Part shown: one piece after another, positions 3,274 to 20,631 of the stretch
Layout of the letters: each line of letters opens with the position of its first letter
How positions within the stretch are numbered: the first letter of the stretch is position 1
Assembly: GCA_964632315.1 (NCBI GenBank)
Contig: CAZWEM010000012.1
Location: 1-61,741 of the forward strand
Source: an uncultured archaeon
Lineage (GTDB): Archaea; Asgardarchaeota; Lokiarchaeia; Sigyniarchaeales; SOKP01
Reading direction: 5' to 3'
DNA length: 61,741 nt
Translations under genes and position numbers: made by a program
Notes under the pieces: model-generated
The model's input: the letters and a program-made list of their open reading frames with translations, nothing else
Databases searched by the model: none
Told to the model about the DNA's origin: nothing

Positions 3274-6200
3274 TTGAAATCAAATGGAAATGATGAATTA
3301 GCTCCAAAGAGGATTGAAAAAACTACTGAGGCCCTATGGCGTGTCCTATGGGCAATAGTGTATTTAATTTTTATTCCCACTATAGTAGCTGTCATATTTT
3401 ATTTCATTTTCAGTTTTGCAGTAGCATTTTTTATAGGGGATGAAAATAATGTTTTTGTAATTTCTCTTGCCCTTTCAGCAATAATGTTTTTGGTTTCGAT
3501 CCTAATATATTACCGACCATTTGATAAATACCGGAAGAAATCGATTTTTCAGAACAAAATAAATAACCCTCGAGCAAGGATTCATATTTTATTCTTGATC
3601 ACACTAGTCTCGCTTATATATACTCCGATTTTTTTGCTTTTTGTTCCAGAGCGAGATGTTCAAGAACAATTAACTTTATTACCATTATTAACATTTGTTT
3701 TAGCTTATAATAGCGTATATCTTTATTATTTCTCTCAACCTATAGATTTCTTTAGCATATCAGAATCCAAGTTCAAACATTTTAATCAGTTGAAAGATAC
3801 AATAAAGCAACCTTATAATCTTATAATTCTTGTTAATTATGTTGTTCTCATAGCGTTTTTATCTATTACTTTTGAAATGAAAATCACACTTGGAGATATA
3901 GTTTTAAACATCTCTTGGTTGTTTGCTATTATTGCAAACATTGTTTTTTACTTTATAGCATTAACAACCACTAAACCTCACATCAAAAAAATAGAAGAAT
4001 CAATAAAAAACAATGAAAATTTTTTAGAAGATTTAGTACTATACAAACAAGCATTTGTGAAATCAATTGTTAGATTAGATTTTTTTATATTAATCCTAAT
4101 TCCATTTGGAATAATATCAGTATTCTACCAACTAATTGAAAATTATGCAATTATAAATGCGATTTTTATAACACTGATACTCGTAATTTTTAACTTTAAG
4201 CTTGATATTTATATAAAATCATATTTTTTCAGGCAACTGAATCGTATAAATCCTGATAGGTATGCTACTCGTGATGTTGGAGTAAAATGGAACTTTTTCT
4301 TAACTATCTCATTCATAATCTTAATTCCTTCCTATATCTTTTATTATTCTTATGTTTTAATACCGGAGGTATTCTATTTCAATTTACTTGCTTTATTAAT
4401 AATTTATTTAATTACAAGAGCAGAGGAAAAGCATGATTATTTACCAAAAGAGTATGCAAAACATCTACATCTAATCATTACTATTTTTTTATCAGCTATT
4501 ATTTCTTTCCAAATTGTTCCAATTGTAGAAATTTTCGTAAATTTCGTAATATTTTTCATTATACTATATTTCAGCCTGGAACTTTTTGTTAAATTCGGTT
4601 ACTATAGCAGGAAAAATTTATTACTCGTACAAAATGTTTTAGCTATCGCTAGTTTTTATTGTATAGCATATTTATTTTTCAGAGATATTGCATTTGGTCC
4701 GAGTCCTATAGATTCAATAAATACGTTTATGGTTCATTACATCCTTCCAGGTTTAATTGGAAGTTTATTCTCTCTTTTTTTGCTATATTTCCGACAATTT
4801 TATAAGAATTCGTGGAAGACTTTAAGAACAGGAGTCATTTGTAATATTTTGGTAATTATTGGACTCTCATTCTATTTACTCAATATTACTCCTAATGTCA
4901 CCAATTTAATTGTGTCAGTAATAGGTTTTTCAATTCTTTACATTGTCCTTACAGGATTCAATTATCTTATTCACATTTTCAGTAAACAAAATTTAGCCAG
5001 TAATGTTTATAGTACAATTTGGGTTTTAGATCTCAGCATTTTTTCTGCCATGTTATTTAATACTTTAACTAATGCAATTAATCTTCTCACAATTGTTCCC
5101 GATTTTCTTGTTTTATCAGCATTAATTTTATTCACTTTATGGTTTGGTAAGAAGATCGGAAAAGTAAGTGAAAGAAATTATTTTAAACTGTTCAATGTTA
5201 ATGGTTTTTTATTAATCCTTGAAATTTTCATTTTATCGTCACAATTTCTCATTGAAGAAGTCTTCCCTCATCAAGTTGAATATAAGGTTTTAGCCTACTT
5301 TATATCCACATGTATCACGGCCCTCATCGTGAACGTTGGAGCACCATCTAAATCTGCATCCATCAAAAAAGCGAAAAATTATCTCAATATCTTTACAGTC
5401 ATGTTTGGGTGGTTTTTAATGGAAATGTTTTATTTCCTTTTAAATTACCAGAATCTTAATGATCTTTACGGCTTAATTATCGCATCATCTTTAATATCTA
5501 CAATTCCAATTGGATTCTTAGTCTTCGTTAAAATTTTAGATAAAAAACGACTCCTTGGTTACCTTTTCCTTGTCATAAATGTTATCTGCTTGACATTTTT
5601 CTCTTTTGTAATCCATTTCATCCTTGAAAATGAAATTGACCTCTTTTTCGGAATTTCGTTTGTCCTCTTAGGTTTAGTTATTTCATATATAGGAATAGGC
5701 AAGGTTGGAGTTAAATTAGGCTATATTTCAAATGACTTTTACCTCAAGTTTGTGAAAACAATGTATTACCCCATTGGAATCATTCTTTTCTTAGTATTTT
5801 TTAGTTTCTCATTAGAACTCACTGGGGATCTATTTCTTTCATTCTTAATTGCAATATCATTGTTGAGTGTATTGACTAATTTTGCGAATTTGATTTTTAA
5901 AACGATTGCCAAAATTAATTTTCGAATCACGCTTATAACACTGTTTTACGCTGTATCCTATGCTTCATTCTTATTGGTTCAATCACTTATTTTAATTCCT
6001 TATTCAACTCTTTATGAATGGTATGTTTACCTATATTTTTCAATAATATTAATTCAATTGATGTTTTACATTCCTTTTGCTTATTTAACAGCAAAGAAAA
6101 CCAATATAAAAGTATCTTTTTTCAAGTATAGCTATTATTCACTGTACAGTATGATTTTGTTAGTTTTTCTTCTGATATCATCGTTCTTTTTTTACTTATT

Positions 6201-9200
6201 TTATTCCCAACTCATTGGAGTATATGTTTTGGCATTGATTGCAGATATTATATATATCACCATTATTCTTTATAACCATATTAAAAGAGGGTTAGCAAAA
6301 CATTATCTACCCGTCATACACCTTTCAAAAAAAGCTGCTATTGTGTTATATTCTGCTCTTTTTTCTGAATTTTATGCTTTTCTTTTAACTATGATTCTTC
6401 TTTTATTTCAGCCACCATGGCAATTATGGGAGTTATTTCTTTCGAGCTATTTGGCATTTGTCATAATCAGTTTAGTAATATTGGTATTAGCAAATAAACT
6501 AATACTCTTTTCGATTGAATTTAGTCATAGAATAAATATAATTTCTCTCTTATTCACTAGTATACTTGCAGCGTACTTTTCGCAAATTTTTGTCAGCACA
6601 TTATTTGTGAACATGTATTTACTATGGGATATAGTAATATTAACATTCTTGGTTTTTAGTTTAGTTCCATTATACTACACAATTAATCGAAATATATTTC
6701 AACGATTTATTAATAAGAAAAGTGTTTATGTTGATGGTATCCTCATATCACTCTCCGTAATCATTTTACCAGTATTTCTCGCTATAGAATTTTCTCTCAT
6801 TACTACATTTCTACTCTATATAGTTATCTCTATGATTTTTTTGAGTTATTGCTTCTTAAAATACGTAGAACATGTATTTGATGAATTGAGTATAAAACAA
6901 GGTCAACAAATCGCTTTAAAAACCATCCAGTTAATTTGCTGGAATTTATTATCGGTATTTGTATCATATACTGTTTTCACTACTTTTACTCCAGGAATTA
7001 TCAATGAAATGTTTTATTTAGTGTTATGCGCATCTTCAATTGCATTTTTTATCATTAATCTGAATAGCCTACCAATAATCGAAGATATAAAACAACGAGT
7101 TTTCGAAAATGAAGAGCTTAAAATTGATTATTACAAAATATATAAGATTTATGAGTTTTATAAGAACGTTAGCTTTTTCGCATTCATTTTCTCCATATCA
7201 GGGTTGATTTCTACTCTCTTGCATCCATTTATTTATTTATTAGGAGCCCTCATACCATTATTCTTTTTAACGCCAGGAATTATTCAATTTGAACTTTTCT
7301 TTTTGTTTTCGCTCTTATTACTTATAATTACGCAAAAGATTGAAATAGAATATCAAAAAACTAGGACTTGGATTATGTTACTTTCTTGGTTGATAATTAA
7401 AAGTACGGTATGCGGTTATATTTATTCATATTTCATTGAAACTCCTATTTTGTCTTGGAGCATATCAATATTGATATTTTCAGTATTTAGCCCTATTACT
7501 CTGCATTTCATCAAGAAGATAAGGTTAGTTTTTGGCAGTACGAGTAAAATAGTAAATAGTATTCTTGTAGTTTCATTTTATGGCTCATTGATCACTTTAT
7601 ATCTTGTCTATTTCTGGACGCTCAGAATGCTTCCATTCTTCTCGGGAAATCTCCTATTATTCTGGTTCTTATTCATTAGTAACAGCATTATATACTTTGA
7701 TTATGTTATTATGAGATTAAGAAATATTTTCGAAGGAGAATTTGAATTTAATCTGTTAAAACTTTATTTCAAGTCATCCTTGGTTTTATGCTTATTCATT
7801 TTCTTCAATTTTTATTTAAACTTAGTCTTGTGGTTTATTTCTGCTATAATATTGTTGAGGCGAAGAAATTCTAGTGTCGTAATTAAATTTCTGATTTATA
7901 TTTTGTTTAGTTTATCATTATACATCTATCTCTTTGTCGATTTTTCATTCTTGTTTCCTTTAGAGTGGAGAGAGATCTCTATAATGCTAACTGTTTCCTT
8001 GATCTCTGTTTTTATGATTTCAATCTTCTCCAATTATCGGAAAGTAAACGACTTAGAAAAGTTTAGTATTTATCTTCTTCTCTCTTTCTTATCCTTCGTT
8101 TCATTTTCTTTTATTCCAGAATTTTCGATATTTCCTGGATTATTTTACAATGGTTCTTTCTCACTATTAATTTTCTTAGCATTGACAGGCAACTATTATT
8201 ATCAGAAGAAAGATAGTAGATATAAGTTGTTTATTCGACCTTGTGCTGTTTTAGCTGTATTTGATCTTACAAGTTTCTTATTTTATGGGTTACTCTTCAA
8301 TTTCCCTCCGTTTAGCCCAAATTACCAACAAATTCTAAGTTTTACTTCAACTTTCAGTTTAACTGGGTTGACTTTTGTATCATTATATAATCAATCACCA
8401 CAGAGATTCAGGCGCTTATCTTTCTTTATCGTATTACCACTTTTGACGTTAAGCATACCCACTTTTATATATTTTTTCATCTTTGCATCTTTTCCGCTAC
8501 TAAGAAGCTCGGTAATACCTTTAACAATATCTCTAAATGTAGGAATATTATTTTTCTATATTGCTATTGGTTTGTACCAATGGAAATTCTCAAGAGCGAT
8601 TTGGAAAACAGGATTCTGGGCTTGGATTCTTCTCCCAATCGTTAATTATGCCATTATTGACCAATCTTTTGCAGCTTTAAGTTTAAGATCTTTGGATCTT
8701 TTTGGTTTCAATATTCCAGCATCCACATTATTAGCAATTACTATTTGTATTATTATATCCTTTCCTTTTTGGTATAGTTGGATTAAAGCTCATTTTAGTA
8801 CAATCTTATTTGGTACCTGGATTATAAGCCTAGGTTTACTTTATTGGTTTAGCCAAAATTTATTCTTAGGAAATCCATTATTGATAAATTCTTCATTCTT
8901 GATTTTTGCATTCATATTGCTCATGCCATTAGTTTACAAGCTTAAAATTTGGAGGGTGTTAATGGCGTTCTGGATCCTTTTTACAATTATTATCATATCT
9001 TTCATTAATTTCTTCTTTTCAGATTTGGGAACAATGGTAATATCCATTGATATCAGTGTTTCAGGTTTATCCATCATATTTTTGTCATATTTTCCTAATA
9101 TGAAAAATAGGCGAAATCTTTCGCTTTTAGTAGCATATTTTGTACTAATGACCGGGATTTCAGTGATGATTTATCAAATTATTCTTGATATTGTGTTTCA

Positions 9201-12200
9201 AGGACTGGACCCACTTGGTGCACTATATTTAACGATGATAATAATTTCTGCTTCATCATTTTCCTCTAGGATACTGAAGGTAAACAAGATTCTGATGAAT
9301 TTTCTGATATCTTGGACTTTAGTTATTTCTTTTGCACTCATGACATTTCATATTTGTAATATATTTCTTCCATATAATATCGGAGGGGCACTTTATATTT
9401 CGTTGACTATTGGAGGTTTAACTTTTTTCATTTTTAATCGTTATAAAATGCTTTGGGGGCCATATGAAAACTTTATGCCTGTATCATCTATGATTGCGTT
9501 TATTGCTATTGCATTAGGCACATCTCTTTCTATCTCATCTATACTTCTAAATATAATTTCAATAAATCCATGGTTTCTCATTGTAGCGGTATTTTTATTC
9601 ACAAATATTATATTTCTTTCATTTAAAATTAAAAACTACGGGTTTATCTTGTCCTATCTATTACCAATCCCCATAAGTTCATTGATCCTCTTCTTTTTAC
9701 TATTTTTTGAGCCCTTGAATAATGTAGTAATTCTTACTACCATCGGAATTTTGACATATTGTGTAGTGAATCAACTTTTGAAAGTTAATGTAAAATTCAA
9801 AGCATTATTACGTCTAATATTATATCTTGATAGTTTCGCATTATCACTACTTTTACTACCTTTCCCCGATCTATCATTGAATTTCTTTATTTCAATGTCA
9901 ATTTTGTTTATATTGACAACTTTTGATAGTTTACTTTCTAAAAAGAGAAAATACTGGTATATTGTTCTAGTGAATCTTATAAGCTATATCTCTTCGACTA
10001 TCTTCTTGTTTTGGTACCTAAATGTCATATTTTTAGCACAATTCGAATATATGATATGGTTAAATAGTTTTGTTTTCATATTACTTCAAAAATATACGGT
10101 CTACGCATTCTATACCATTCTTAAATCCTTGAATAAATACGACCCTGAAAAACTCGTACGATATAGGTTGATTTTAAATTATAGTTTATCCAATGCTCTA
10201 TATGTCCTCATTAGTCTTTACGGTTCCTTAAGCCTTGGTTCAGCGATTAATGAATACTTTTCTTTAATTGGAATAGCTTCATTCTCTTTAGGATTGATGA
10301 TTTTTTGCTTCTTCTATTTTATTCTAAATAGCATTTTCAATAGAAAATTTAAGGGTAAAGTAAGAGGGGGAATAAGATCAGGTCTATTTGTCGCTTTCCA
10401 AGTTAGTTTATTTGGATTATGGGCTTTTAGCCTCGGATTGAATAACTTTTCTTTTCTAATGCTCATAATTATTATTGAAACGTTATTATTATATTATACT
10501 TTTAGTTTGTTCTCTCCGTTAATTAGCAAGGAAAGTGAAAAAGTAGTTTTTAACTATGTACCATTTTTAACTTTTCTTTTATATGTTGAAATTTCAATCT
10601 TAAGCTTCAGCTTGATTAATAGTTATACTACACTAGACTTGTTCTATTCAAGTTTCTATTCCCTCTTGATCTTTTTTATTTTAACCGCGATCGAACTAGG
10701 GATCGTTAAGAAAGTTAATATAAAATTGACAAAACTCAGTCATTTTGTAAGTTATACAATTACTTCTGTGCTTGTCTTTATTTTTGCTCCTAGCTTTTTA
10801 TTAGGACATGTTGATTATATTATTTTCAACTTAATTATTATATTATTTCTCTCAATGCAGTTTTATACCGTGAGAGCTCTATTTTCATTCCTTAGTCATT
10901 ATAATTGGTTCAATAACATAAAAGCATTGAGAGTTAAACAAATGATTAATAATATACTTATAAATTCGATTTTTATCTTGTTAAGTTTGTTTGGCTCCTT
11001 GTTAATTTCAACTTTAAATGTTCCATTTTCTAATATCTTCTTTATCTCTTTACTCTTTTCTTTCTTCATGTTCTTTTTAAATGGAACAATTAATAGAACA
11101 ATTGATAGATCTCTAAGAGTTAAGTATTTACTCGTACCTTCCTTTATTGCAATGCAGATTTTTTCTCTTTTATTAATGGTTGAGATGCTACAAATTGATG
11201 TAAACCTTTTTATCTTTTGGTTAAGCTTAATAGCACTTATTGAAACCCTAATGAGCATATATCCCCTTTACATTATGAGAAAGTACACGAAAAATGAAGC
11301 GAGAAGAGTTTTTATATCAAATTCATTTAAAGGGATTGAGTTTTGCTTGTATCTTGAAATCACAATATTAACTTTTGGAATCTTTTATTATAATCTAAGA
11401 GAACCATTTCAAAGTTTATTATATTCCCAATTAATTTTGTTTGGATTAAGCGTGCTGGAAATCTTTGTATTTAAGAGCTTGAAGGAAAAATTCGGATATA
11501 TTATACATCTTATTAGTTATTTAATACTTTCTGGGTCTTTAGTTTATATCGTATTTTTATTCAGATTATCAGAATTCCTATACCTACTGATAATTTTAAT
11601 GCAATTTTATTCTAATTATGCATACTTTAGAATGAAACGCGATCTAAATCCAGAGAATGCAGATACAAATCAAAAATGGGCAGTAAGAAGACAAAGAATA
11701 ATTGGGACTGCTTTCTATAGCGTTTTATTATTTCTAGTTTCTCGCTATCTGTTGTTTTTTACTACATTTGATATTTTCATTTCATTATTCTTGATAAGCT
11801 TATTACTTCATGTAATTACGTTATTTGACAGGGCGATCTTAATATTCCTTGGCCGTTTATCAATGCCATTGATTGTGATTTCATTAATCATTATCAATAT
11901 TATTTCAATTCCAGTATTTTTAACTTGGATCTTTACAACGGGTCTTACGTATAGGTTAATACCGTTAGTGATTATTATTGTAGAAATAGAGCTATTTTAT
12001 TTAGCTAAACTAACCAATAAATGGAAAGCATTCAAGAACCCTTTTATCTCTGTATTATATTTCAATCTATCGTCTTGGCCTATATATTTTATTGATCTCT
12101 CTTTTGCATCATTATTAATTAACTTTAACTTGATTATGCTTTCAATGTTTTTATTTTTCATAATTGTGAAAATAGATAGAGCAATTAATGCTTTAAGCGT

Positions 12201-13086
12201 AAAAATGTCGAAGCCGATTTCTTCCATAGCATTGCTCATCCTTGGATTTGGAATCCCCGTTGACTTATTCATATTATTACAATCATACAATCTTGATATT
12301 ATTTTAAATATCGCAATATCTGCTCTTGTTGGAACTATGGAACTTGGGATCGTAAAAAGGCCGTATAAGAGAAAGAGAGGCATATCATTCTTTTATACCC
12401 TTACTTTGCTTGTTGAGGTGTTAATCATCACTCAACAAATAAATATTGTATCATTAGGGTATAGTGTTTTGGTCATAGGAACGCTTATCTATCTCTTCAT
12501 GTTCATGTTAGAAGAATTGAAGGAATTTTTTAGCCATATCGTTGATTATGTCTCAAGGGGATGGAATGCCATAAAATCATTCATAAATAGCATTTTGACT
12601 GGTATTTATACATTTTTAAAGAGGAATTATACCACTCTCAAAATTCTATTTGCTGCTATTATAGGAGGACTTATGGGATATGTCTCGAATGTCTTACCCA
12701 TTTTTGGGGGCACTCTGGGTGCATATGATTATGCACCGTTATTCGGCCTAGCAGTTTTTGGTTTAATAGTTGGACTCTTTCCCGGTAAAAAAAATGAGGA
12801 TCTGGACAGTATTTTTAGAACTAGAATGACACGATTCAGTACGGTTTGGTTTGGAGTAACCATATTCATATTTATGATAATTATTCCTGTAGTTGATCCC
12901 TTAATTCAAGTAATTTTGACGTTATCTTCATTTTTAATTTTAGGTCTAATTCTCGCGATTTATGTGTGGAGAATCGAGAAAAAACAAAAAATTTCGATAA
13001 AATGGCGTTTATATATCACGGTTGTATTGATAATATTGCTAATAGTATGGGCAATCTTATTGATAATAGTGTATCTAAGAGGATAA
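3274..13086 (+). CDS. giant polytopic integral membrane protein (3270 aa), unknown function
   Basis: Uninterrupted 9.8-kb ORF made almost entirely of hydrophobic segments separated by short K/R-rich loops; no recognisable soluble domain. Confidence 0.85.
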   Translation: MKSNGNDELAPKRIEKTTEALWRVLWAIVYLIFIPTIVAVIFYFIFSFAVAFFIGDENNVFVISLALSAIMFLVSILIYYRPFDKYRKKSIFQNKINNPRARIHILFLITLVSLIYTPIFLLFVPERDVQEQLTLLPLLTFVLAYNSVYLYYFSQPIDFFSISESKFKHFNQLKDTIKQPYNLIILVNYVVLIAFLSITFEMKITLGDIVLNISWLFAIIANIVFYFIALTTTKPHIKKIEESIKNNENFLEDLVLYKQAFVKSIVRLDFFILILIPFGIISVFYQLIENYAIINAIFITLILVIFNFKLDIYIKSYFFRQLNRINPDRYATRDVGVKWNFFLTISFIILIPSYIFYYSYVLIPEVFYFNLLALLIIYLITRAEEKHDYLPKEYAKHLHLIITIFLSAIISFQIVPIVEIFVNFVIFFIILYFSLELFVKFGYYSRKNLLLVQNVLAIASFYCIAYLFFRDIAFGPSPIDSINTFMVHYILPGLIGSLFSLFLLYFRQFYKNSWKTLRTGVICNILVIIGLSFYLLNITPNVTNLIVSVIGFSILYIVLTGFNYLIHIFSKQNLASNVYSTIWVLDLSIFSAMLFNTLTNAINLLTIVPDFLVLSALILFTLWFGKKIGKVSERNYFKLFNVNGFLLILEIFILSSQFLIEEVFPHQVEYKVLAYFISTCITALIVNVGAPSKSASIKKAKNYLNIFTVMFGWFLMEMFYFLLNYQNLNDLYGLIIASSLISTIPIGFLVFVKILDKKRLLGYLFLVINVICLTFFSFVIHFILENEIDLFFGISFVLLGLVISYIGIGKVGVKLGYISNDFYLKFVKTMYYPIGIILFLVFFSFSLELTGDLFLSFLIAISLLSVLTNFANLIFKTIAKINFRITLITLFYAVSYASFLLVQSLILIPYSTLYEWYVYLYFSIILIQLMFYIPFAYLTAKKTNIKVSFFKYSYYSLYSMILLVFLLISSFFFYLFYSQLIGVYVLALIADIIYITIILYNHIKRGLAKHYLPVIHLSKKAAIVLYSALFSEFYAFLLTMILLLFQPPWQLWELFLSSYLAFVIISLVILVLANKLILFSIEFSHRINIISLLFTSILAAYFSQIFVSTLFVNMYLLWDIVILTFLVFSLVPLYYTINRNIFQRFINKKSVYVDGILISLSVIILPVFLAIEFSLITTFLLYIVISMIFLSYCFLKYVEHVFDELSIKQGQQIALKTIQLICWNLLSVFVSYTVFTTFTPGIINEMFYLVLCASSIAFFIINLNSLPIIEDIKQRVFENEELKIDYYKIYKIYEFYKNVSFFAFIFSISGLISTLLHPFIYLLGALIPLFFLTPGIIQFELFFLFSLLLLIITQKIEIEYQKTRTWIMLLSWLIIKSTVCGYIYSYFIETPILSWSISILIFSVFSPITLHFIKKIRLVFGSTSKIVNSILVVSFYGSLITLYLVYFWTLRMLPFFSGNLLLFWFLFISNSIIYFDYVIMRLRNIFEGEFEFNLLKLYFKSSLVLCLFIFFNFYLNLVLWFISAIILLRRRNSSVVIKFLIYILFSLSLYIYLFVDFSFLFPLEWREISIMLTVSLISVFMISIFSNYRKVNDLEKFSIYLLLSFLSFVSFSFIPEFSIFPGLFYNGSFSLLIFLALTGNYYYQKKDSRYKLFIRPCAVLAVFDLTSFLFYGLLFNFPPFSPNYQQILSFTSTFSLTGLTFVSLYNQSPQRFRRLSFFIVLPLLTLSIPTFIYFFIFASFPLLRSSVIPLTISLNVGILFFYIAIGLYQWKFSRAIWKTGFWAWILLPIVNYAIIDQSFAALSLRSLDLFGFNIPASTLLAITICIIISFPFWYSWIKAHFSTILFGTWIISLGLLYWFSQNLFLGNPLLINSSFLIFAFILLMPLVYKLKIWRVLMAFWILFTIIIISFINFFFSDLGTMVISIDISVSGLSIIFLSYFPNMKNRRNLSLLVAYFVLMTGISVMIYQIILDIVFQGLDPLGALYLTMIIISASSFSSRILKVNKILMNFLISWTLVISFALMTFHICNIFLPYNIGGALYISLTIGGLTFFIFNRYKMLWGPYENFMPVSSMIAFIAIALGTSLSISSILLNIISINPWFLIVAVFLFTNIIFLSFKIKNYGFILSYLLPIPISSLILFFLLFFEPLNNVVILTTIGILTYCVVNQLLKVNVKFKALLRLILYLDSFALSLLLLPFPDLSLNFFISMSILFILTTFDSLLSKKRKYWYIVLVNLISYISSTIFLFWYLNVIFLAQFEYMIWLNSFVFILLQKYTVYAFYTILKSLNKYDPEKLVRYRLILNYSLSNALYVLISLYGSLSLGSAINEYFSLIGIASFSLGLMIFCFFYFILNSIFNRKFKGKVRGGIRSGLFVAFQVSLFGLWAFSLGLNNFSFLMLIIIIETLLLYYTFSLFSPLISKESEKVVFNYVPFLTFLLYVEISILSFSLINSYTTLDLFYSSFYSLLIFFILTAIELGIVKKVNIKLTKLSHFVSYTITSVLVFIFAPSFLLGHVDYIIFNLIIILFLSMQFYTVRALFSFLSHYNWFNNIKALRVKQMINNILINSIFILLSLFGSLLISTLNVPFSNIFFISLLFSFFMFFLNGTINRTIDRSLRVKYLLVPSFIAMQIFSLLLMVEMLQIDVNLFIFWLSLIALIETLMSIYPLYIMRKYTKNEARRVFISNSFKGIEFCLYLEITILTFGIFYYNLREPFQSLLYSQLILFGLSVLEIFVFKSLKEKFGYIIHLISYLILSGSLVYIVFLFRLSEFLYLLIILMQFYSNYAYFRMKRDLNPENADTNQKWAVRRQRIIGTAFYSVLLFLVSRYLLFFTTFDIFISLFLISLLLHVITLFDRAILIFLGRLSMPLIVISLIIINIISIPVFLTWIFTTGLTYRLIPLVIIIVEIELFYLAKLTNKWKAFKNPFISVLYFNLSSWPIYFIDLSFASLLINFNLIMLSMFLFFIIVKIDRAINALSVKMSKPISSIALLILGFGIPVDLFILLQSYNLDIILNIAISALVGTMELGIVKRPYKRKRGISFFYTLTLLVEVLIITQQINIVSLGYSVLVIGTLIYLFMFMLEELKEFFSHIVDYVSRGWNAIKSFINSILTGIYTFLKRNYTTLKILFAAIIGGLMGYVSNVLPIFGGTLGAYDYAPLFGLAVFGLIVGLFPGKKNEDLDSIFRTRMTRFSTVWFGVTIFIFMIIIPVVDPLIQVILTLSSFLILGLILAIYVWRIEKKQKISIKWRLYITVVLIILLIVWAILLIIVYLRG

Positions 13087-14966: not shown

Positions 14967-16001
14967 ATGAGTCAATTAGACGAATATGTAAATAGAATTT
15001 CTAAATCCATTAATACAGGGAATTATCGAAAGTCGGCGAAGTTATTATCCAACCTCGCGATGAATATTGACAATAACCAAATAGATCTCACAGTTGATCT
15101 TATATCTCGTGCCTTAAAATCTAGATTGGGTCCAAAATTTAGTAGAGCTTTCATTTCTCTTAGTCATAAAAAAGTTGAACAATATAAAATATATCAAATA
15201 GAAAAATCATTAATCAATACCCATATTTTGATCGATGGAGAAGGCTTAATAGATTCATTCATTGGAAGTCTTGAAAGTGATATTGAAAAAGTCAATGGAA
15301 GAATTTTTCTTACGAATTTTCGCATTATTGCTACAGGATATCAAAGAGATCTCCCTAAAACTGGAGTGGTTAAACAGAGATTACCATCAAGGAGTATTTT
15401 AAGAACTATTGTTAATACAGCTAAAACGGCTCAAGAGATCAAGCAATCTTATGATCCAGCAAAAAAAATAAAAAAATCGATGAATCGTGGATTTTTTTCA
15501 GTGAATAGAATTCAATATGGGTCATACTATCCCTTATCACCTCCTGAAACTATAATGGTTAAAGACCAATCGTTAGAGTTTATAATTTCTGTTTCATATC
15601 TTTCAGACGAGGAACGAATATTTGGCGAACTTGAAGTCAAAATTACTAGAGAAAGATTTCCTTTTGAAACGCAAGAAGATTTTCAAAAAAACAAAATACT
15701 ATCATATAACCTTTTTAAAAATGCTTTAAAAGATTCCTATAAAGAGGTAGATAAACTTCAAGTTGTCAATATGGGAAATGTCTCAGATTTTGCACCGTTC
15801 TTGGGTACTTTTTTTAAAGAAAACGAGGGGAAAGCTTGGACGGTTAAAGCGATTTTAAATCGAAAAGATCAACTTGATTTGCCTAATAATCTGAGGTACC
15901 AGCTCTCAGAAAAAATAATCGCTGATACATTAGAACAGCTGTTTAGCGAGGGTTTAATCAGTCGAAATATCCATGAAGGAAACTTTTTTTATTTTCTCTG
16001 A
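14967..16001 (+). CDS. hypothetical protein with PH/GRAM-like central motif and C-terminal winged helix
   Basis: GRIFLTNFRIIA resembles the GRAM/PH-like beta strands; C-terminal FFKENEGKAWT...LEQLFSEGLISR...FFYF is winged-helix-like. Confidence 0.6.
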   Translation: MSQLDEYVNRISKSINTGNYRKSAKLLSNLAMNIDNNQIDLTVDLISRALKSRLGPKFSRAFISLSHKKVEQYKIYQIEKSLINTHILIDGEGLIDSFIGSLESDIEKVNGRIFLTNFRIIATGYQRDLPKTGVVKQRLPSRSILRTIVNTAKTAQEIKQSYDPAKKIKKSMNRGFFSVNRIQYGSYYPLSPPETIMVKDQSLEFIISVSYLSDEERIFGELEVKITRERFPFETQEDFQKNKILSYNLFKNALKDSYKEVDKLQVVNMGNVSDFAPFLGTFFKENEGKAWTVKAILNRKDQLDLPNNLRYQLSEKIIADTLEQLFSEGLISRNIHEGNFFYFL

Positions 16002-16025: not shown

Positions 16026-16502
16026 ATGCCAAAGTGGAATCACTATTATTTTATTTGTTATGGAATTATACTCATTTCTATTGGAATACTATTGGTTTTA
16101 ACTTTATTTAATCCATTTTCAAGCACAATATCATTTCTTTTATTTATATTATCAATCTGTTTGAATATTCCACTGATTATTGGGATAGTATTTATTGTAA
16201 TTGGCCTAATAATACGATATAATTCAAAACATAAAATACAAAAGTCGAATAAACAATTATCCTCTTCAATCAAATCCTTAAATTTGTCTTCTACTGAAAG
16301 GGATTTATATGGATATCTCAAGGATAATTATGGAAAGCCTTTTTCTTCTCAAATCCTATTTGAGAAAAAAGATGAAATCTTGAATGAAAATAAGAGAATA
16401 ACAAAACTAAATTTTATGAAATGCTTAGAAAAGATATATGGTGTAGGACTAATAAAACGTAGTATAGATAATGAGGATTTATTCTACTATTTTATCAATT
16501 AA
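16026..16502 (+). CDS. membrane-anchored (2 TM) protein with C-terminal winged helix
   Basis: Two N-terminal hydrophobic helices; C-terminal YLKDNYGKPFS...LEKIYGVGLIKR...LFYYF parallels the upstream gene's C-terminus. Confidence 0.65.
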   Translation: MPKWNHYYFICYGIILISIGILLVLTLFNPFSSTISFLLFILSICLNIPLIIGIVFIVIGLIIRYNSKHKIQKSNKQLSSSIKSLNLSSTERDLYGYLKDNYGKPFSSQILFEKKDEILNENKRITKLNFMKCLEKIYGVGLIKRSIDNEDLFYYFIN

Positions 16503-16570: not shown

Positions 16571-16584
16571 AAAACTATTTATAT
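16571..16584 (+). promoter_or_regulatory. archaeal BRE/TATA promoter for the downstream ncRNA candidate
   Basis: AAAACTATTTATAT: A-rich BRE followed by TTTATA (16578-16583), about 25-30 nt upstream of the start of the structured region. Confidence 0.5.
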
Positions 16585-16609
16585 TGATATTTAGTGTAAT
16601 ATGATTAAA

Positions 16610-17335
16610 AGGTTTAAGAAGATTGCAATGAAACCGCAAGGTATCATTGCGTGGTACTGCTAATGATGTAAGGTTAGACCAAACCACCAGTCCGAGAACG
16701 AGTAGCTCAATCCAGAGCCATTCCTTTGAACCCGAGGGTAAAGGGAAAGCTTTTTACACCAATGATGCCGTACCTCTTCTTAGGATCACGCTCGAAAGCT
16801 TGATAAAAGGAAATATATAAGCAAATCCAAAAGGATTGCTTATTAATTATCGCAATTCATTTCATTGCTCGGCCAAGCAATTTAAGAATCCCTTCACGCG
16901 ATAATTTTAATAACTGGTGTGGGGACCTGTTATTCAATTTCTCCAGAGTTTTTAACCGAACGTGCTAGCAATATTCGATTGCTAAGATATCACGAAGATA
17001 CTTAGAGGATGCATCTCATGATCGCATAAAGGTCGCAATATTTTTTTCCAATGATCACGCTCAAAAGCATGATGGTAGAGAAGGCATTTGAAAACCCGTA
17101 AGTTTTCTTAGCAGTAGTATTGGTTTTCATATCTGCATATGATATATCTCAATGAAGTGCTTAACTCGAATCAGTAAAACCCAAAGGTTTGTAATCCAAG
17201 CTATTGTCCGAAGACATTTTCTTTCCATTAAGGAAAGGAAGCATTACCAAATTTTAATACCCGAGAGCATTTCATTTAGTAATTCCATAGAGATCCAATA
17301 CTTCTTCTCTGTATTCGCACCGTAAGGTGTGAATA
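16610..17335 (+). ncRNA. large (~720 nt) highly structured non-coding RNA of unknown family
   Basis: No ORF of 60 aa or more, GC higher than the flanking intergenic DNA, more than 12 local hairpins plus nested long-range helices, including 5'/3' closure 16617-16622/17303-17308, 16655-16663/17108-17116 and 17151-17161/17266-17276. GNRA-capped hairpins at both ends; G-U pairs read on the + strand. Confidence 0.75.
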
Positions 17336-17481
17336 ATTATATTAATGGCAAAGTGATATTTAAATGAAATTGTTAATGGATTATTATATAATTATGTCGG
17401 AGATATTGGTTATTGTTCATTTTATGTCGTTTAAAATATGTGACGAATCACCTTTTTAATTATTGATTCTCTATTATTTAT

Positions 17482-17940
17482 ATGGCGATTTCATTTTTTG
17501 ATGGGTTATTCCTTTTTGTAGCTATTTCTTTGAATATTAAAATAATTCTCATTTTCCTCGCAAGATATCGCGGTCCTGAAGGCCTTGAGCATAAGATTGG
17601 CTACTTAGTAATAGCTTGCATCATCCCATTAATCATTATCTTAATAAATTACCTTTTAATTGGTAAAGATCTCTGGATTCTCATCTATTTAATTATTATT
17701 ATCAGTTTCTTGATTTTTGAAATGATTTTAGACTACATTCTAAAACTCAATTTTCGTAGGAATCTTAAGATTGTTGTACCTTACACCTTGTTCTATTATG
17801 TTGCATTTTGGGGCTTATTAGCAATCTCTTTTGTCATTGATTTGGTATTTGGATTTATAGTTTTTAGTATTTTTATGTTAAGCGTCGTTGTCACCATCTA
17901 CACTCACAAGAAGGAAAAGAATAAAATGTTCAAAAAATGA
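17482..17940 (+). CDS. hypothetical membrane protein (about 5 TM)
   Basis: ORF track; hydrophobic segments with EMILDYILKLNFR loop. Confidence 0.75.
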   Translation: MAISFFDGLFLFVAISLNIKIILIFLARYRGPEGLEHKIGYLVIACIIPLIIILINYLLIGKDLWILIYLIIIISFLIFEMILDYILKLNFRRNLKIVVPYTLFYYVAFWGLLAISFVIDLVFGFIVFSIFMLSVVVTIYTHKKEKNKMFKK

Positions 17941-17945
17941 AATTC

Positions 17946-20351
17946 TCAATTCCCCATGAAACTAGCTAAATTTTTTTGAGTGGACTTCCTGTTTATCTTT
18001 GATTTCAACAATTTTTCAAGCTCGGGAAATTCGAAGGGGAAGAGGTTTTCAAATGCTCTCTGAAGCAGTTCCACATATTTTTTCTTGTCATAGTGATGCT
18101 TCTTTTCATCATATAAGTGAGAAAGGATTACTTTTTTATTTGGAAAGTCGGGATCAGCTTCAGCATTTAAGATGATATAGAAAACATTCTTTCCCGGAGT
18201 AGCCATCACGCCAGATTTCTCTAGTTGTCGAGCAGCAACTGCTTGATACGAGTTCACCTTGTATTGAGAGGGAACACGAGATATTCTTTGCTTAATTGTC
18301 AATTCTTCCTTTGAAATGTGACCAGTTTCGATTTTATCAACATATTGAAGCAATAACTTCTTTGCTTCAGGAATCTTGCTTTTAAATTCTTGGATTGACT
18401 TTACCTCCTTAAAAACATCAATAAAAGCATATTGAGCATCTTTAACGATTTTAGGTATATCACGTCGTCGAACTTCAATTCCCCTTACTTTTATCTCTCC
18501 AGTATTTTTTATCCCCCAATAATGACTCAGGGCAGGAACATCAGGTTCTGCTCGAGATGGAAGAAATACAATACTGTTAAAAAGACCATCCCAACTCATA
18601 GGTATTTGCGTTTTATTCGTTATTTCTTGAGCGACTATTTTTGTTATTTTCTCAAACTCTTCAGGAGTCCTATTCTGAGTATCCTGAAGCCACATTGAAT
18701 CAACTATTCCATGGATGACCTTGCAACCATAATCTTCAGCAATTTCTGCCGAACGCATAAGAAATTCACGTGAGAAGGCGCATACCGTTTGATGAGCCTC
18801 AATCTTTCCAAAACGAGCGTTTTTGAATCCTAAGTACCCAAAACTCACGACCAATACCCATTTTAAAGCCGTATCAGTAAACTTATATCGAACGCTTCCT
18901 GTTTTCCGAACATACTCCTTACAATTCAAGCGTTTAATTAAAGGTAGTTTTATTGATTTAGAAATAATACCTTCTCTTTTTGAACAAATGTGAAAATCAA
19001 GGCCAGGAACCTTAATTCCTGTTCCATCATCTTTACAACACTTGCAATTGACTGTTTCAGACGAGATATTAAAGTTTGCCATCAAAGAGGGATACATTGA
19101 AGAAAAATCAAGTTCAGCCACTTGATGGAAAACTCCAATTATGGGCTCATAAATATGTCCCCCACGATCACCCTTAATCAGATCCATTCCCGAACGAAAA
19201 TCTTCGGGACTCTTTTTAAAGGGAGGAATTAGATGATCTAGCTTATACGCATAATAATATTGTATAGATTGAAGTGCCCCTCCAATGGTTACTCTACTTA
19301 AGCGTTGTAAAGGAACGCGTGAAATCCGAGCAACTTCAATTACACCTGGTATGTTTCCTTCAGTAAAGTGTAAACTCGCATAAGTAGTGGTATCAAGATG
19401 AAATCTTCCCGTGAAGTATACTTGTGTTTTTGATCGCCTGCGGATGACTCCATATGACATATAATGATCCTTGCTTCCTGATAAGTCGAAAATGCAGTTT
19501 CGTAAAGGAGTTTTTGTTCGCGAAAAATAAACTTTTTTTGAAATACCATGAGCAGAAGCTCTTTCAGCTAAGTAAGGAAACATGAATTCATCTCCAACTT
19601 GAGTCAAAATAATGTCAGGATCTAATCTTTCAATAACTTTACTTATCTCCAAAAGTGTCTCCGCTTCATCGCCCTTATCAATCAAGATCGTATCTTTTTT
19701 GTAGCCATCCGCACGAGGTACATTATCTTCATCATTTTCTACGATGCTTATTTGGGCATAAGCAATAGGATCATTATAATAAGGTCTGATCCCTCTTTGC
19801 TGTACTTTAACATCTAACCATGCTGCTTTCAAAGGAGGTAATTCATAAAAGAGCTCTTCGTTGTCATCATTTAAAATGACTGAAACCAATAGCATTTTCT
19901 CTTTCTCTTTACTTTTCTGAATATTGACTTTAAAGCTGCATTTTGAAATAGGAAACAGATCATTAACATAGAAATACATCTGAGAAATGGGTAAATCCGT
20001 ATTATAGAGGATGAATAAATCATCTTTCTCAATTTCCTTTATAGTTGCTTTAAATAAAGAGGGCTTTATCACAGAAACCCCCAGTACCTCTTCTTTCTCG
20101 TGATCTTCAAGGCTCACGTACTTTTTACATACTCTCACGCTTTTTACATTAGCATTCTGGCTAAGAATTTTCTCTAAAGTTTTTAAATCCTTTCCAATGC
20201 CCTTTTTGGGGACAACAAAAAATTCAGGGAAATAGTCGGCATAGATTTCCACATTTTCTTCTTCTTCAATAGTTTTTACCCAGAGTTTAACTCCGTTGCT
20301 GCACGTTGAGACATCGAGCAACCATCCTTCAAAGGTTTTTATTTCATTCAC
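17946..20351 (-). CDS. polB2: family B DNA polymerase, PolB2 (Dpo2) group
   Basis: Motif A ELDFSSMYPS, motif B KWVLVVSFGYLG, and altered motif C HGIVDS (vs YGDTDS) characteristic of PolB2; degenerate exonuclease domain; KVRGIEVRRRD. Confidence 0.9.
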   Translation of the reverse strand: MNEIKTFEGWLLDVSTCSNGVKLWVKTIEEEENVEIYADYFPEFFVVPKKGIGKDLKTLEKILSQNANVKSVRVCKKYVSLEDHEKEEVLGVSVIKPSLFKATIKEIEKDDLFILYNTDLPISQMYFYVNDLFPISKCSFKVNIQKSKEKEKMLLVSVILNDDNEELFYELPPLKAAWLDVKVQQRGIRPYYNDPIAYAQISIVENDEDNVPRADGYKKDTILIDKGDEAETLLEISKVIERLDPDIILTQVGDEFMFPYLAERASAHGISKKVYFSRTKTPLRNCIFDLSGSKDHYMSYGVIRRRSKTQVYFTGRFHLDTTTYASLHFTEGNIPGVIEVARISRVPLQRLSRVTIGGALQSIQYYYAYKLDHLIPPFKKSPEDFRSGMDLIKGDRGGHIYEPIIGVFHQVAELDFSSMYPSLMANFNISSETVNCKCCKDDGTGIKVPGLDFHICSKREGIISKSIKLPLIKRLNCKEYVRKTGSVRYKFTDTALKWVLVVSFGYLGFKNARFGKIEAHQTVCAFSREFLMRSAEIAEDYGCKVIHGIVDSMWLQDTQNRTPEEFEKITKIVAQEITNKTQIPMSWDGLFNSIVFLPSRAEPDVPALSHYWGIKNTGEIKVRGIEVRRRDIPKIVKDAQYAFIDVFKEVKSIQEFKSKIPEAKKLLLQYVDKIETGHISKEELTIKQRISRVPSQYKVNSYQAVAARQLEKSGVMATPGKNVFYIILNAEADPDFPNKKVILSHLYDEKKHHYDKKKYVELLQRAFENLFPFEFPELEKLLKSKINRKSTQKNLASFMGN

Positions 20352-20631
20352 GCGTTTTTTCGTAATCTCTCAACTTCTCCTCGAGACTTTCAATTTTCTT
20401 TGATAAAAACTCAATAGCTTTTTGTTGCTCAATTGCAAAGGACATAAATAGTATCTCTGATAGCATTGTACGAGCCCCCATACTGCCTGCATCTGAATGA
20501 ATTCGTGCAAAGTTCATTAACTTATCAAATCTTTTTCGATCTTCGGGTCGTAATGCTCTTTTGAACTCTTTCCAGCTCTCAATTTCGTGTTCAAGAGCTG
20601 GTCGGAAACTTGGTACTGTTCTACCACACAT
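20344..20631 (-). CDS. small PolB2-associated helical protein
   Basis: (M)GRTVPSFRPALEHEIESWKEFKRALRPEDRKRFDKL matches the small protein conserved beside archaeal polB2 genes; overlaps the polB2 start. Confidence 0.75.
   Translation of the reverse strand: MCGRTVPSFRPALEHEIESWKEFKRALRPEDRKRFDKLMNFARIHSDAGSMGARTMLSEILFMSFAIEQQKAIEFLSKKIESLEEKLRDYEKTRE

What the first reader, a model, noticed from the sequence alone, without database searches (positions are those of the whole stretch)
16610..17335. Candidate large ornate non-coding RNA (~720 nt) in an Asgard-type archaeon
Seen in the sequence: a ~980-bp ORF-free gap holds a BRE/TATA (16571-16584) followed by a densely paired region. Long-range nested helices are AGAAGA 16617-22/TCTTCT 17303-08 (closes the molecule), TACTGCTAA 16655-63/TTAGCAGTA 17108-16, ATGCC.TACC 16765-74/GGTA...GGCAT 17074-87, GTATTGG 17117-23/CCAATAC 17295-301, AATGAAGTGCT 17151-61/AGCATTTCATT 17266-76 and AATTATCGC 16845-53/GCGATAATT 16898-906. 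Local hairpins include 16625-50 (GCAA loop), 16721-47, 16817-43, 16864-81, 16909-34, 16966-84 and a terminal 17312-35 (GUAA loop). Wobble pairs are G-U on the + strand, which gives the orientation. Possible pseudoknots are GTGGT 16651-55/ACCAC 16683-87 or CACCAGT 16685-91/ACTGGTG 16913-19. I did not find the RNase P, SRP or group I/II intron signatures I looked for. Established: ROOL, GOLLD and OLE are RNAs of this size and complexity described mainly from bacteria and phages. Inference: this is an archaeal member of such a class or a new giant structured RNA family, and it is the best candidate for an undescribed system in this window.
Basis: partly seen in the sequence, partly recalled or inferred. 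Interest (0 to 1): 0.92.

Follow-up and report, generated by a model that had tools for sequence, protein, structure and literature searches.

The report
Three-unit structured RNA gene, Asgard archaeon
This stretch is a real gene for a 728-base folded non-coding RNA, read from the opposite strand to the one proposed and built from three diverged copies of a ~250-base unit; it belongs to an apparently undescribed RNA family found in two genera of Loki-type Asgard archaea, and its function is untested.

Summary
The paired region is real, but it is read from the minus strand (about 17334 to 16607), not the plus strand. In all eight homologues tested, that strand folds 30-43 kcal/mol better. It carries a conserved TTTAAATA box 23 nt upstream and ends in an oligo-U run.

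The RNA matches no Rfam family. RNase P and SRP RNAs lie elsewhere in the genome. Homologues of 261-745 nt occur in two genera of one Promethearchaeia family, in 20 of 42 and 36 of 54 genomes. None were found in 22 other genera of the order or in viral contigs.

The helices show compensatory changes, no reading frame is conserved, and indels are 1-2 nt. The window's RNA is the most divergent long form (about 60% identity to 16 others). It consists of three diverged copies of a unit that stands alone in relatives.

A conserved promoter block of about 100 bp, unique in this genome, travels with the gene. Adjacency to polB2 is shared ancestry within one genus, not a functional link.

Function is unknown. 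My best guess is a regulated, multivalent scaffold or decoy RNA. Earlier follow-ups in this scan found the same family in other genomes.

The parts
16607..17334 (-). The RNA gene: predicted transcript of about 728 nt, from the start at 17334 to the oligo-U run ending at 16607
   Evidence: nhmmer with the homologue profile covers 17335-16607 on the minus strand (E 5.7e-140). Conservation ends sharply at both ends.
17074..17334 (-). Unit 1. It contains the 5' hairpin H0, the P1 and P2 5' strands, a multi-hairpin domain and the P2 3' strand. It is the unit closest to the single-unit relatives.
   Evidence: The single-unit profile matches 17336-17077 (E 4.8e-25). It groups with unit 1 of the other long forms (support 95/94).
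16806..17073 (-). Unit 2, a diverged copy that starts with hairpin 17073-17054
   Evidence: Unit alignment. It groups with unit 2 of the other long forms (support 98/97). Self-similarity of sense positions 204-291 to 474-560.
16607..16805 (-). Unit 3, a diverged and shortened copy (199 nt against about 235 nt). It starts with hairpin 16804-16785 and ends with the 3' hairpin, the P1 3' strand and the U run.
   Evidence: Its 3' end matches the single-unit profile.
17313..17334 (-). 5' hairpin H0 (AUUCACACC-UUAC-GGUGCGAAU)
   Evidence: Present in every family member. Two of its pairs show compensatory changes, and wobbles are G-U on this sense.
17303..17309 (-). P1 5' strand (GAGAAGA). It pairs with 16616-16622 and closes the whole molecule.
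   Evidence: P1 is sequence-invariant in the single-unit relatives apart from one G-C/G-U position.
16616..16622 (-). P1 3' strand (UCUUCUU)
17295..17302 (-). P2 5' strand (AGUAUUGG). It pairs with 17116-17123.
   Evidence: Six of nine P2 pairs show changes on both sides across relatives.
17108..17115 (-). Long-range helix, 5' strand (ACUGCUAA). It pairs with 16656-16663 and encloses units 2 and 3.
   Evidence: The other long forms have a different-sequence helix in the analogous place (GCAAUGAG/CUCAUUGC, helix 11).
16625..16650 (-). 3' hairpin (GCAAUGA...UCAUUGC) just before the P1 3' strand
16607..16612 (-). CCUUUU run at the 3' end, the likely archaeal oligo-U terminator
   Evidence: A CCTTTT(T) run follows P1 in every homologue.
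17357..17364 (-). TATA box TTTAAATA
   Evidence: It lies 23 nt before the hairpin in 53 of 55 distinct loci (22 nt in the other 2). The base just before TTCA is always a purine.
17369..17386 (-). Upstream element TAATAATCCATTAACAAT (family consensus TTAATAAYCCNTTAATAG, two TTAATA half-sites 11 nt apart)
   Evidence: It is the only exact match in the genome, with one 3-mismatch hit and one control hit.
17390..17399 (-). Proximal CGACATAA box
   Evidence: CGAC lies 35 nt before the TATA box in 36 of 55 loci.
17420..17429 (-). Distal CGACATAA box, 30 nt upstream of the proximal one
   Evidence: CGAC lies 65 nt before the TATA box in 40 of 55 loci. These two are the only matches to the box pattern in the 61.7-kb window.

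Best explanation
The region is a stand-alone gene for a 728-nt structured non-coding RNA, transcribed from the minus strand (about 17334 to 16607). It has its own TATA promoter and ends at an oligo-U run.

It belongs to an apparently undescribed, size-variable RNA family (261-745 nt) found in two genera of one Promethearchaeia (Loki-type Asgard) family. The basic unit of about 250 nt has:
- a 5' hairpin;
- a closing helix P1 of nearly fixed sequence (GAGAAG/CUUCUY);
- a covarying helix P2 that carries a variable multi-hairpin domain;
- a 3' hairpin.

The window's RNA is an old triplication of that unit, now nested. P1 of unit 1 pairs with the 3' end of unit 3, and a second long-range helix encloses units 2 and 3.

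How it works is inference, about 35-40% likely. I think it is a trans-acting scaffold or decoy in which each unit is one binding module for the same partner, either a protein or copies of the RNA itself. On that reading, unit triplication, tandem gene duplication and extra hairpins change valency or dose. The multi-box promoter would make expression condition-dependent.
For: Strand:
- The minus strand has the lower folding energy in 8 of 8 homologues tested.
- Consensus fold is -164 against -75 kcal/mol, and 225 against 150 pairs.
- In pairs predicted on both strands, 33 cells read G-U on the minus sense and 12 read A-C.
- TATA-to-hairpin spacing is 23 nt in 53 of 55 loci, with a purine at the predicted start. 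A U-run lies at the 3' end.

Structure:
- In 17 long forms, 97.1% of cells are canonical pairs against 34-42% when partners are slid.
- 27 pairs have changes on both sides, against 6.9 +/- 2.1 in shuffles and 8-13 when slid.
- In 17 short forms, P2 has 6 of 9 compensatory pairs.

Non-coding: no conserved open frame; indels of 1, 2 and 3 nt number 81, 20 and 3; no 3-base periodicity.

Three units:
- The single-unit profile hits three consecutive segments of the long forms, and the units align.
- In the tree, the window's units 1 and 2 group with their counterparts in the other long forms, supports 95/94 and 98/97. Unit 3's placement is unresolved: the tree shows no well-supported clade for it.

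Stand-alone gene:
- The promoter block is conserved in 55 loci and unique in this genome.
- In the second genus the gene sits in at least four other gene contexts without polB2.
- Several same-genus genomes lack any profile match downstream of polB2, and where the flank was read the next gene follows directly.

Valency: there are one-unit, expanded and three-unit forms. One genome has two tandem genes, each with its own promoter.

No known family: no Rfam match for any form.
Against: - No expression data were available to me. The start and end are inferred from sequence only.
- The consensus structure was derived from the same alignments on which pairs were counted, which inflates the pairing percentage.
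- The 16 other long forms are 78-98% alike. Covariation in units 2 and 3 therefore rests largely on the window against the rest.
- Because the units are paralogous, several helices have equally good alternatives: each unit closing on itself, or nested or swapped pairing at 17 bp each by my count. The exact fold is not settled.
- The scaffold or decoy mechanism has no direct support. No partner gene is linked, and the neighbouring 152-aa membrane protein is not tied to the RNA.
Confidence: 0.8

Rival explanations
1. The three-unit transcript is a precursor. Each unit folds on its own and is cut out to give three single-unit RNAs, so triplication is simply a way to raise dose.
For: Each unit keeps its own hairpin, P1-like strands, P2 and 3' hairpin. 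By my reading of those sequences, within-unit P1 pairing is possible at 6, 5 and 6 bp. One genome raises dose by tandem gene duplication instead.
Against: The units are strongly diverged from each other, yet each is 85-90% conserved among orthologues. Units 2 and 3 have replaced the P1 sequence that is otherwise invariant. The consensus and the window's own fold prefer long-range helices that enclose units 2 and 3: 8 bp against 4 bp local in the other long forms, and 8-9 bp in the window. Unit 3 of the window has lost part of its domain.
Confidence: 0.12
2. The RNA is functionally tied to the neighbouring polB2 repair-polymerase cassette, as a 3' UTR element, a regulator or an RNA subunit.
For: In the window's genus every RNA copy lies downstream of polB2 on the same strand.
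Against: The RNA has its own conserved promoter. In the window a 152-aa gene on the other strand separates it from polB2. In the second genus 12 of 14 sampled copies have no polB2 within 1.5 kb and lie in at least 4 other contexts. In 13 of 30 polB2 loci of the same genus, the profile finds no RNA. No CGAC box lies upstream of the polB2 cassette.
Confidence: 0.05
3. The RNA is transcribed from the plus strand, from the TATA-like sequence at 16571-16584.
For: The plus strand also folds beyond shuffles (z = -5.2). A few hairpins have GNRA loops on that strand. In the window's own 5' hairpin and in 17151-61/17266-76 the wobble is G-U on the plus strand.
Against: The plus strand folds 30-43 kcal/mol worse in all 8 homologues tested. 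Its consensus fold has half the energy and 75 fewer pairs. The left flank, where its promoter would be, is not conserved. The right flank carries a conserved TATA box at fixed spacing. c(UUCG)g loops and the oligo-U run appear only on the minus sense.
Confidence: 0.03
4. It is a very diverged member of a known RNA class (RNase P, SRP, group I or II intron, OLE, ROOL, GOLLD, HEARO/omega RNA) that the Rfam models miss.
For: Size and complexity resemble those classes. Homologues contain GGAAAGUCC, the RNase P CR-I string, but only on the plus strand.
Against: No Rfam match even at E up to 10 on either strand, for the long or short forms. A bona fide RNase P RNA (139.7 bits) and an SRP RNA lie elsewhere in the genome. 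There is a single copy per genome, no interrupted host gene and no linked nuclease or reverse transcriptase.
Confidence: 0.03

Closest known systems
Large 'ornate' orphan RNAs of bacteria and phages: OLE (RF01071), GOLLD (RF01998), ROOL
   Same: A several-hundred-nucleotide, multi-junction RNA rich in stable tetraloops, with patchy distribution and no obvious function. Cryo-EM shows those RNAs form homo-oligomers (PMC12286853). That makes a self-assembling reading of this repeated-unit RNA worth testing.
   Different: No sequence or structure match. This RNA is archaeal, not bacterial or phage-borne, and none was found in IMG/VR. It has no OapA-like linked partner. It is built from repeated paralogous units and carries a dedicated multi-box promoter.
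Multivalent protein-sequestering RNAs such as CsrB/RsmZ (from my own knowledge)
   Same: Function scales with the number of repeated binding modules. Copy number varies between relatives, and expression is regulated.
   Different: Those repeats are short GGA hairpins. Here the unit is a ~250-nt multi-helix domain with no known protein partner. The comparison is an analogy for mechanism only.
Archaeal RNase P RNA (RF00373)
   Same: A single unit has a similar size and a multi-helix architecture with long-range closing helices.
   Different: The genome has its own RNase P RNA on another contig. There is no match to the model. The RNA is absent from about half of the related genomes, so it is not a housekeeping RNA.
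The same undescribed family as seen by earlier follow-ups of this scan in other genomes (e1-5572846, e1-5528341, e1-5590317 and others)
   Same: Promoter block, 5' hairpin, P1, P2, 3' hairpin, size range 230-750 nt, two genera, independence from polB2.
   Different: The window's copy is the most diverged long form I found. It is about 60% identical to 16 other long forms that are 78-98% alike. Its third unit is shortened and its long-range helix is rewired.

Membership tests
Undescribed Promethearchaeia modular RNA family (single-unit and three-unit forms) | Conserved promoter block: two CGAC boxes, the TTAATAAYCCNTTAATAG element, and TTTAAATA 23 nt before the 5' hairpin | tested here: met
   Window 17429-17357 on the minus strand
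Undescribed Promethearchaeia modular RNA family (single-unit and three-unit forms) | 5' hairpin TTCAYAY...TRYGAA followed by P1 GAGAAG, which pairs with CUUCUY at the 3' end before an oligo-U run | tested here: met
   Pattern match at 17304-17333 on the minus strand. P1 is 17309-17303 with 16622-16616, and the U run is 16610-16607.
Undescribed Promethearchaeia modular RNA family (single-unit and three-unit forms) | P2 helix (GUAU.../...AUAC) with covariation, and the 3' hairpin GCAAUGA/UCAUUGC | tested here: met
   Window P2 is 17302-17295 with 17123-17116, and the 3' hairpin is 16650-16625. P2 covariation is 6 of 9 pairs.
Undescribed Promethearchaeia modular RNA family (single-unit and three-unit forms) | Profile homology to other members | tested here: met
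   nhmmer E 4.8e-25 with the single-unit profile and 5.7e-140 with the long-form profile
OLE, ROOL, GOLLD, HEARO (Rfam) | Match to the family covariance model | tested here: not met
   No hit at gathering score or at E up to 10 on either strand. No hit for the short relatives.
ROOL / GOLLD | Frequent location in phages or prophages | tested here: not met
   The 5' motif scan of IMG/VR gave 4 chance matches, with no promoter block and no profile hit. The window has one chromosomal copy in a syntenic locus.
OLE | Linked membrane-protein partner gene (oapA) | tested here: not met
   The adjacent 152-aa membrane-protein gene belongs to a multi-copy family. It is present in genera without the RNA and is usually not adjacent to the RNA.
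RNase P RNA (RF00373) / SRP RNA (RF01857) | Being the genome's copy of the universal RNA | tested here: not met
   RNase P RNA is at C17:8122-8448 (139.7 bits). SRP RNA hits are at C78 and C64.
Group I / group II introns | Match to intron models, an interrupted host gene, multiple copies | tested here: not met
   No Rfam hit. It is intergenic with its own promoter, with one copy per genome.

The most novel reading that the evidence does not exclude
The family is the first 'ornate' self-assembling RNA of archaea. Single units would associate in trans through their nearly invariant P1 and 3'-hairpin strands. The window's three-unit RNA would be the covalent, pseudo-symmetric version of that assembly. 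Expression would come from a dedicated multi-element promoter (TATA box, proximal element and distal boxes) that recalls eukaryotic snRNA-type promoters.
Probability: 0.12. Interest if true: 0.9.

Novelty: categorically new. Interest (0 to 1): 0.75.

Why it matters
I know of no large structured RNAs of unknown function in archaea, and the paper searches found none in Asgard archaea, the closest prokaryotic relatives of eukaryotes.

This family offers a natural series: one unit, expanded unit, three nested units, and tandem genes. That series shows how a big RNA grows by duplicating a folded module, and it gives ready-made constructs for structural work.

Two features suggest a regulated accessory function still to be found: the unusually long, family-specific promoter block, and the gene's presence in only about half of related genomes.

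For annotation, it sets the strand and ends of a gene that current pipelines miss.

Tried and rejected
- **Rfam.** Searches at gathering and permissive thresholds on the window and on six short-form loci gave only chance hits: mir-208, FuFi-1, bxd_5 and twister-P3, all far below cut-off.
- **RNase P idea.** The GGAAAGUCC string in homologues prompted it. I rejected it because the string is on the wrong strand, is absent from the window's copy, and the genome has its own RNase P RNA.
- **First genome-contig scan.** It failed because I miscounted a spacer and was repeated correctly.
- **polB2 partnership.** Rejected.
- **The 152-aa membrane protein as an OapA-like partner.** Rejected because it belongs to a multi-copy family that also occurs in genera without the RNA.
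- **Viral carriage.** Rejected.
- **Other genes sharing the promoter block.** Neither the RNase P nor the SRP RNA upstream regions carry it, and there is no second exact site in the genome.
- **Second copy in this genome.** None found with three profiles.
- **K-turn, C/D-box, tetraloop-receptor and bulge-helix-bulge motifs.** I looked by eye only and found nothing convincing, so I claim nothing.
Homologues do not support them at the same columns, but MAFFT alignments are a weak test.
- **Covariance model of the whole unit.** I did not build one because of the 400-column and calibration limits.

Full report
**What is in the sequence.** The 979-bp gap between ORFs 16026-16502 and 17482-17940 has no ORF longer than 57 aa. 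Its G+C is 0.38-0.44 against 0.20-0.28 in the flanks. Both strands fold far better than dinucleotide shuffles. The plus strand gives -195.7 kcal/mol (z -5.2) and the minus strand -235.1 kcal/mol (z -6.3). No Rfam family matches, at gathering score or at E up to 10, on either strand. The genome has an RNase P RNA (139.7 bits) and SRP RNA hits on other contigs.

**Homologues.**
- BLAST and nhmmer found full-length relatives in genomes of the same genus.
- A motif scan of GTDB genomes returned MAGs labelled Promethearchaeota or Promethearchaeia, plus one labelled Hermodarchaeota.
- A scan of JGI metagenomes added 19 loci.
- In all I collected 17 distinct long forms (730-745 nt) and many short forms of 261-384 nt.
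- The window's RNA is about 60% identical to the 16 other long forms, which are 78-98% identical to each other.

**Strand.**
- In all 8 homologues tested, the window's minus strand folds 30-43 kcal/mol better.
- The RNAalifold consensus is -164 kcal/mol with 225 pairs for that sense, against -75 kcal/mol with 150 pairs for the other.
- In pairs predicted on both strands, 33 cells are G-U on the minus sense against 12 A-C.
- Pairs predicted only on the minus sense hold 360 G-U cells.
- Recurrent c(UUCG)g loops exist only on the minus sense (and my reading).
- The minus-sense 3' end is a conserved CCUUUU(U) run immediately after the closing helix.
- The minus-sense 5' end is preceded by TTTAAATA. 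The spacing is 23 nt in 53 of 55 distinct loci, and a purine always lies just before the hairpin.

The family as a whole overrules it.

**It is an RNA, not a gene for a protein.** On 17 long forms the consensus structure has 97.1% canonical cells, against 34-42% when partners are slid. It has 27 pairs with changes on both sides, against 6.9 +/- 2.1 in shuffles and 8-13 when slid. On 17 short forms from about six clades, P2 has 6 of 9 compensatory pairs and the 5' hairpin has 2. P1 is invariant except for one G-C/G-U position. No reading frame is conserved. Indels of 1, 2 and 3 nt number 81, 20 and 3, and variable sites show no 3-base periodicity. One caveat applies: the structures were derived from the same alignments on which pairs were counted.

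**Architecture.** The short forms define a unit with these parts:
- a 5' hairpin H0;
- P1 (CGAGAAG/CUUCUYG), which closes the RNA;
- P2, which carries a variable multi-hairpin domain;
- a 3' hairpin (GCAAUGA...UCAUUGC);
- a U run.

A profile of the short forms hits three consecutive segments of the long forms. Aligning those segments shows each has its own H0-like hairpin, purine-rich and pyrimidine-rich P1-like strands, a P2 and a 3' hairpin. In a tree, the window's unit 1 groups with the other unit 1s (support 95/94) and its unit 2 with the other unit 2s (98/97). Unit 3's placement is unresolved. I take the triplication to predate the split between the window's lineage and the others. All three units stay 85-90% conserved within the larger clade.

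The window's units are 17334-17074, 17073-16806 and 16805-16607. Unit 3 is shortened to 199 nt. The nearly identical hairpins at 17073-17054 and 16804-16785 are the H0 copies of units 2 and 3.

The consensus and the window's own fold are nested:
- P1 of unit 1 pairs with the 3' end of unit 3.
- A second long-range helix encloses units 2 and 3. In the window it is ACUGCUAA/UUAGCAGU. In the others it is GCAAUGAG/CUCAUUGC in the analogous place.
- The pyrimidine strand at the end of one unit can pair with the purine strand at the start of the next, capping it with that unit's H0.

By my count, within-unit closure is equally possible at 17 bp against 17 bp. The fold is therefore not settled.

**Promoter block.** About 100 bp upstream is conserved in 55 loci, whatever the neighbouring genes:
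- two CGAC boxes 30 nt apart, at 17429-17420 and 17399-17390 in the window, the only two matches in 61.7 kb;
- TTAATAAYCCNTTAATAG, at 17386-17369;
- TTTAAATA, at 17364-17357.

The block is unique in this genome and is absent upstream of the RNase P and SRP RNA genes. I infer a dedicated regulator.

**Distribution and context.**
- The strict 5' motif occurs in 2 of 24 genera of the order, with no hit for the reversed control.
- A promoter-plus-5' probe finds the gene in 19 of 41 other genomes of the window's genus and in 36 of 54 of a second genus. Only weak short matches appear elsewhere.
- There is one copy in this genome.
- In the window's genus the RNA always lies downstream of a family-B polymerase gene. 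Earlier notes call it polB2, which I did not verify beyond Pfam.
- In 13 of 30 polB2 loci of that genus the profile finds no RNA. Where the downstream sequence could be read, the next gene follows directly or only the distal box is left.
- In the second genus the gene lies in at least four other contexts, next to genes for an alpha/beta hydrolase, a gelsolin-domain protein, nitronate monooxygenase or a radical SAM protein.
- One genome has two tandem copies, each with its own promoter. One subtype has a doubled 5' hairpin.
- The 152-aa membrane protein next to the RNA in the window changes sides in other loci. It belongs to a multi-copy family that is also present in genera lacking the RNA.
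- No copy was found in IMG/VR.

**Interpretation.**
- What is shown: a separately promoted, structured, non-coding, accessory RNA gene of a family with no Rfam match. The three paper searches found no description.
- What is inferred: the start and end of the transcript, the nested fold, and regulation through the upstream boxes.
- What is speculative: the mechanism. Repeated amplification of a folded unit, an invariant terminal arm, a variable interior capped by stable loops, and the lack of a conserved single-stranded seed point to a multivalent scaffold or decoy. They argue against a base-pairing regulator. The partner could be a protein or the RNA itself.

**Earlier work in this scan.** Earlier follow-ups of this scan reached the same family from other genomes. 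I re-tested their main claims here and they hold: real RNA, own promoter, two genera, independence from polB2, and one-unit and three-unit forms. I could not check the reported metatranscriptome signal.

Noticed in passing
window 17946-20351 (-) and 20344-20631 (-): An 801-aa family-B DNA polymerase (Pfam DNA_pol_B plus the exonuclease domain) is overlapped at its start by a 95-aa ORF with a weak DUF6809 match. Earlier notes of this scan call this pair PPB2-PolB2 of a mutasome-like cassette. I saw no RadA-like gene directly adjacent.
   Followed up: partly
window 3274-13086 (+): A 3270-aa giant ORF lies a few kb from the RNA. Parts of it have 35-43% identical relatives in the syntenic loci L012 and L013.
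   Followed up: no
window 17482-17940 (+): A 152-aa, very hydrophobic (multi-pass membrane) protein with no Pfam match. It sits on either side of the RNA in different genomes. It belongs to a multi-copy family found in 9 of 13 genera of the family.
   Followed up: yes
L112 (G127:C76:4950-6700): Two tandem copies of a ~295-nt form of the RNA, about 512 bp apart, each with the full promoter block. This subtype, also seen in L113-L117, has a doubled 5' hairpin.
   Followed up: partly
L031 and L032 (polB2 loci of genomes without the RNA): The distal box TCCGAYTTAAAAA survives right after polB2 although the RNA gene is missing. This looks like a deletion scar.
   Followed up: no
own genome, C78:7260-7522 (-) and C64:12560-12796 (+): Two matches to the archaeal SRP RNA model, both below the gathering score (75.4 and 59.7 bits against 96.5). 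Either this is a diverged SRP RNA plus a second related RNA, or it reflects contamination (the genome's contamination estimate is 8.6%).
   Followed up: no
window 17390-17429 (+ strand reading): Read on the plus strand, the two CGACAT boxes are ATGTCG in the same frame, 10 codons apart, and open a 21-codon ORF. Other loci have no ATG there, so this is probably coincidence.
   Followed up: partly
window 14967-16001 and 16026-16502 (+): Two ORFs of 344 and 158 aa with no Pfam match lie between the GyrI-like gene and the RNA. Other syntenic loci have different or no genes at this spot, so this is a variable insertion point.
   Followed up: no
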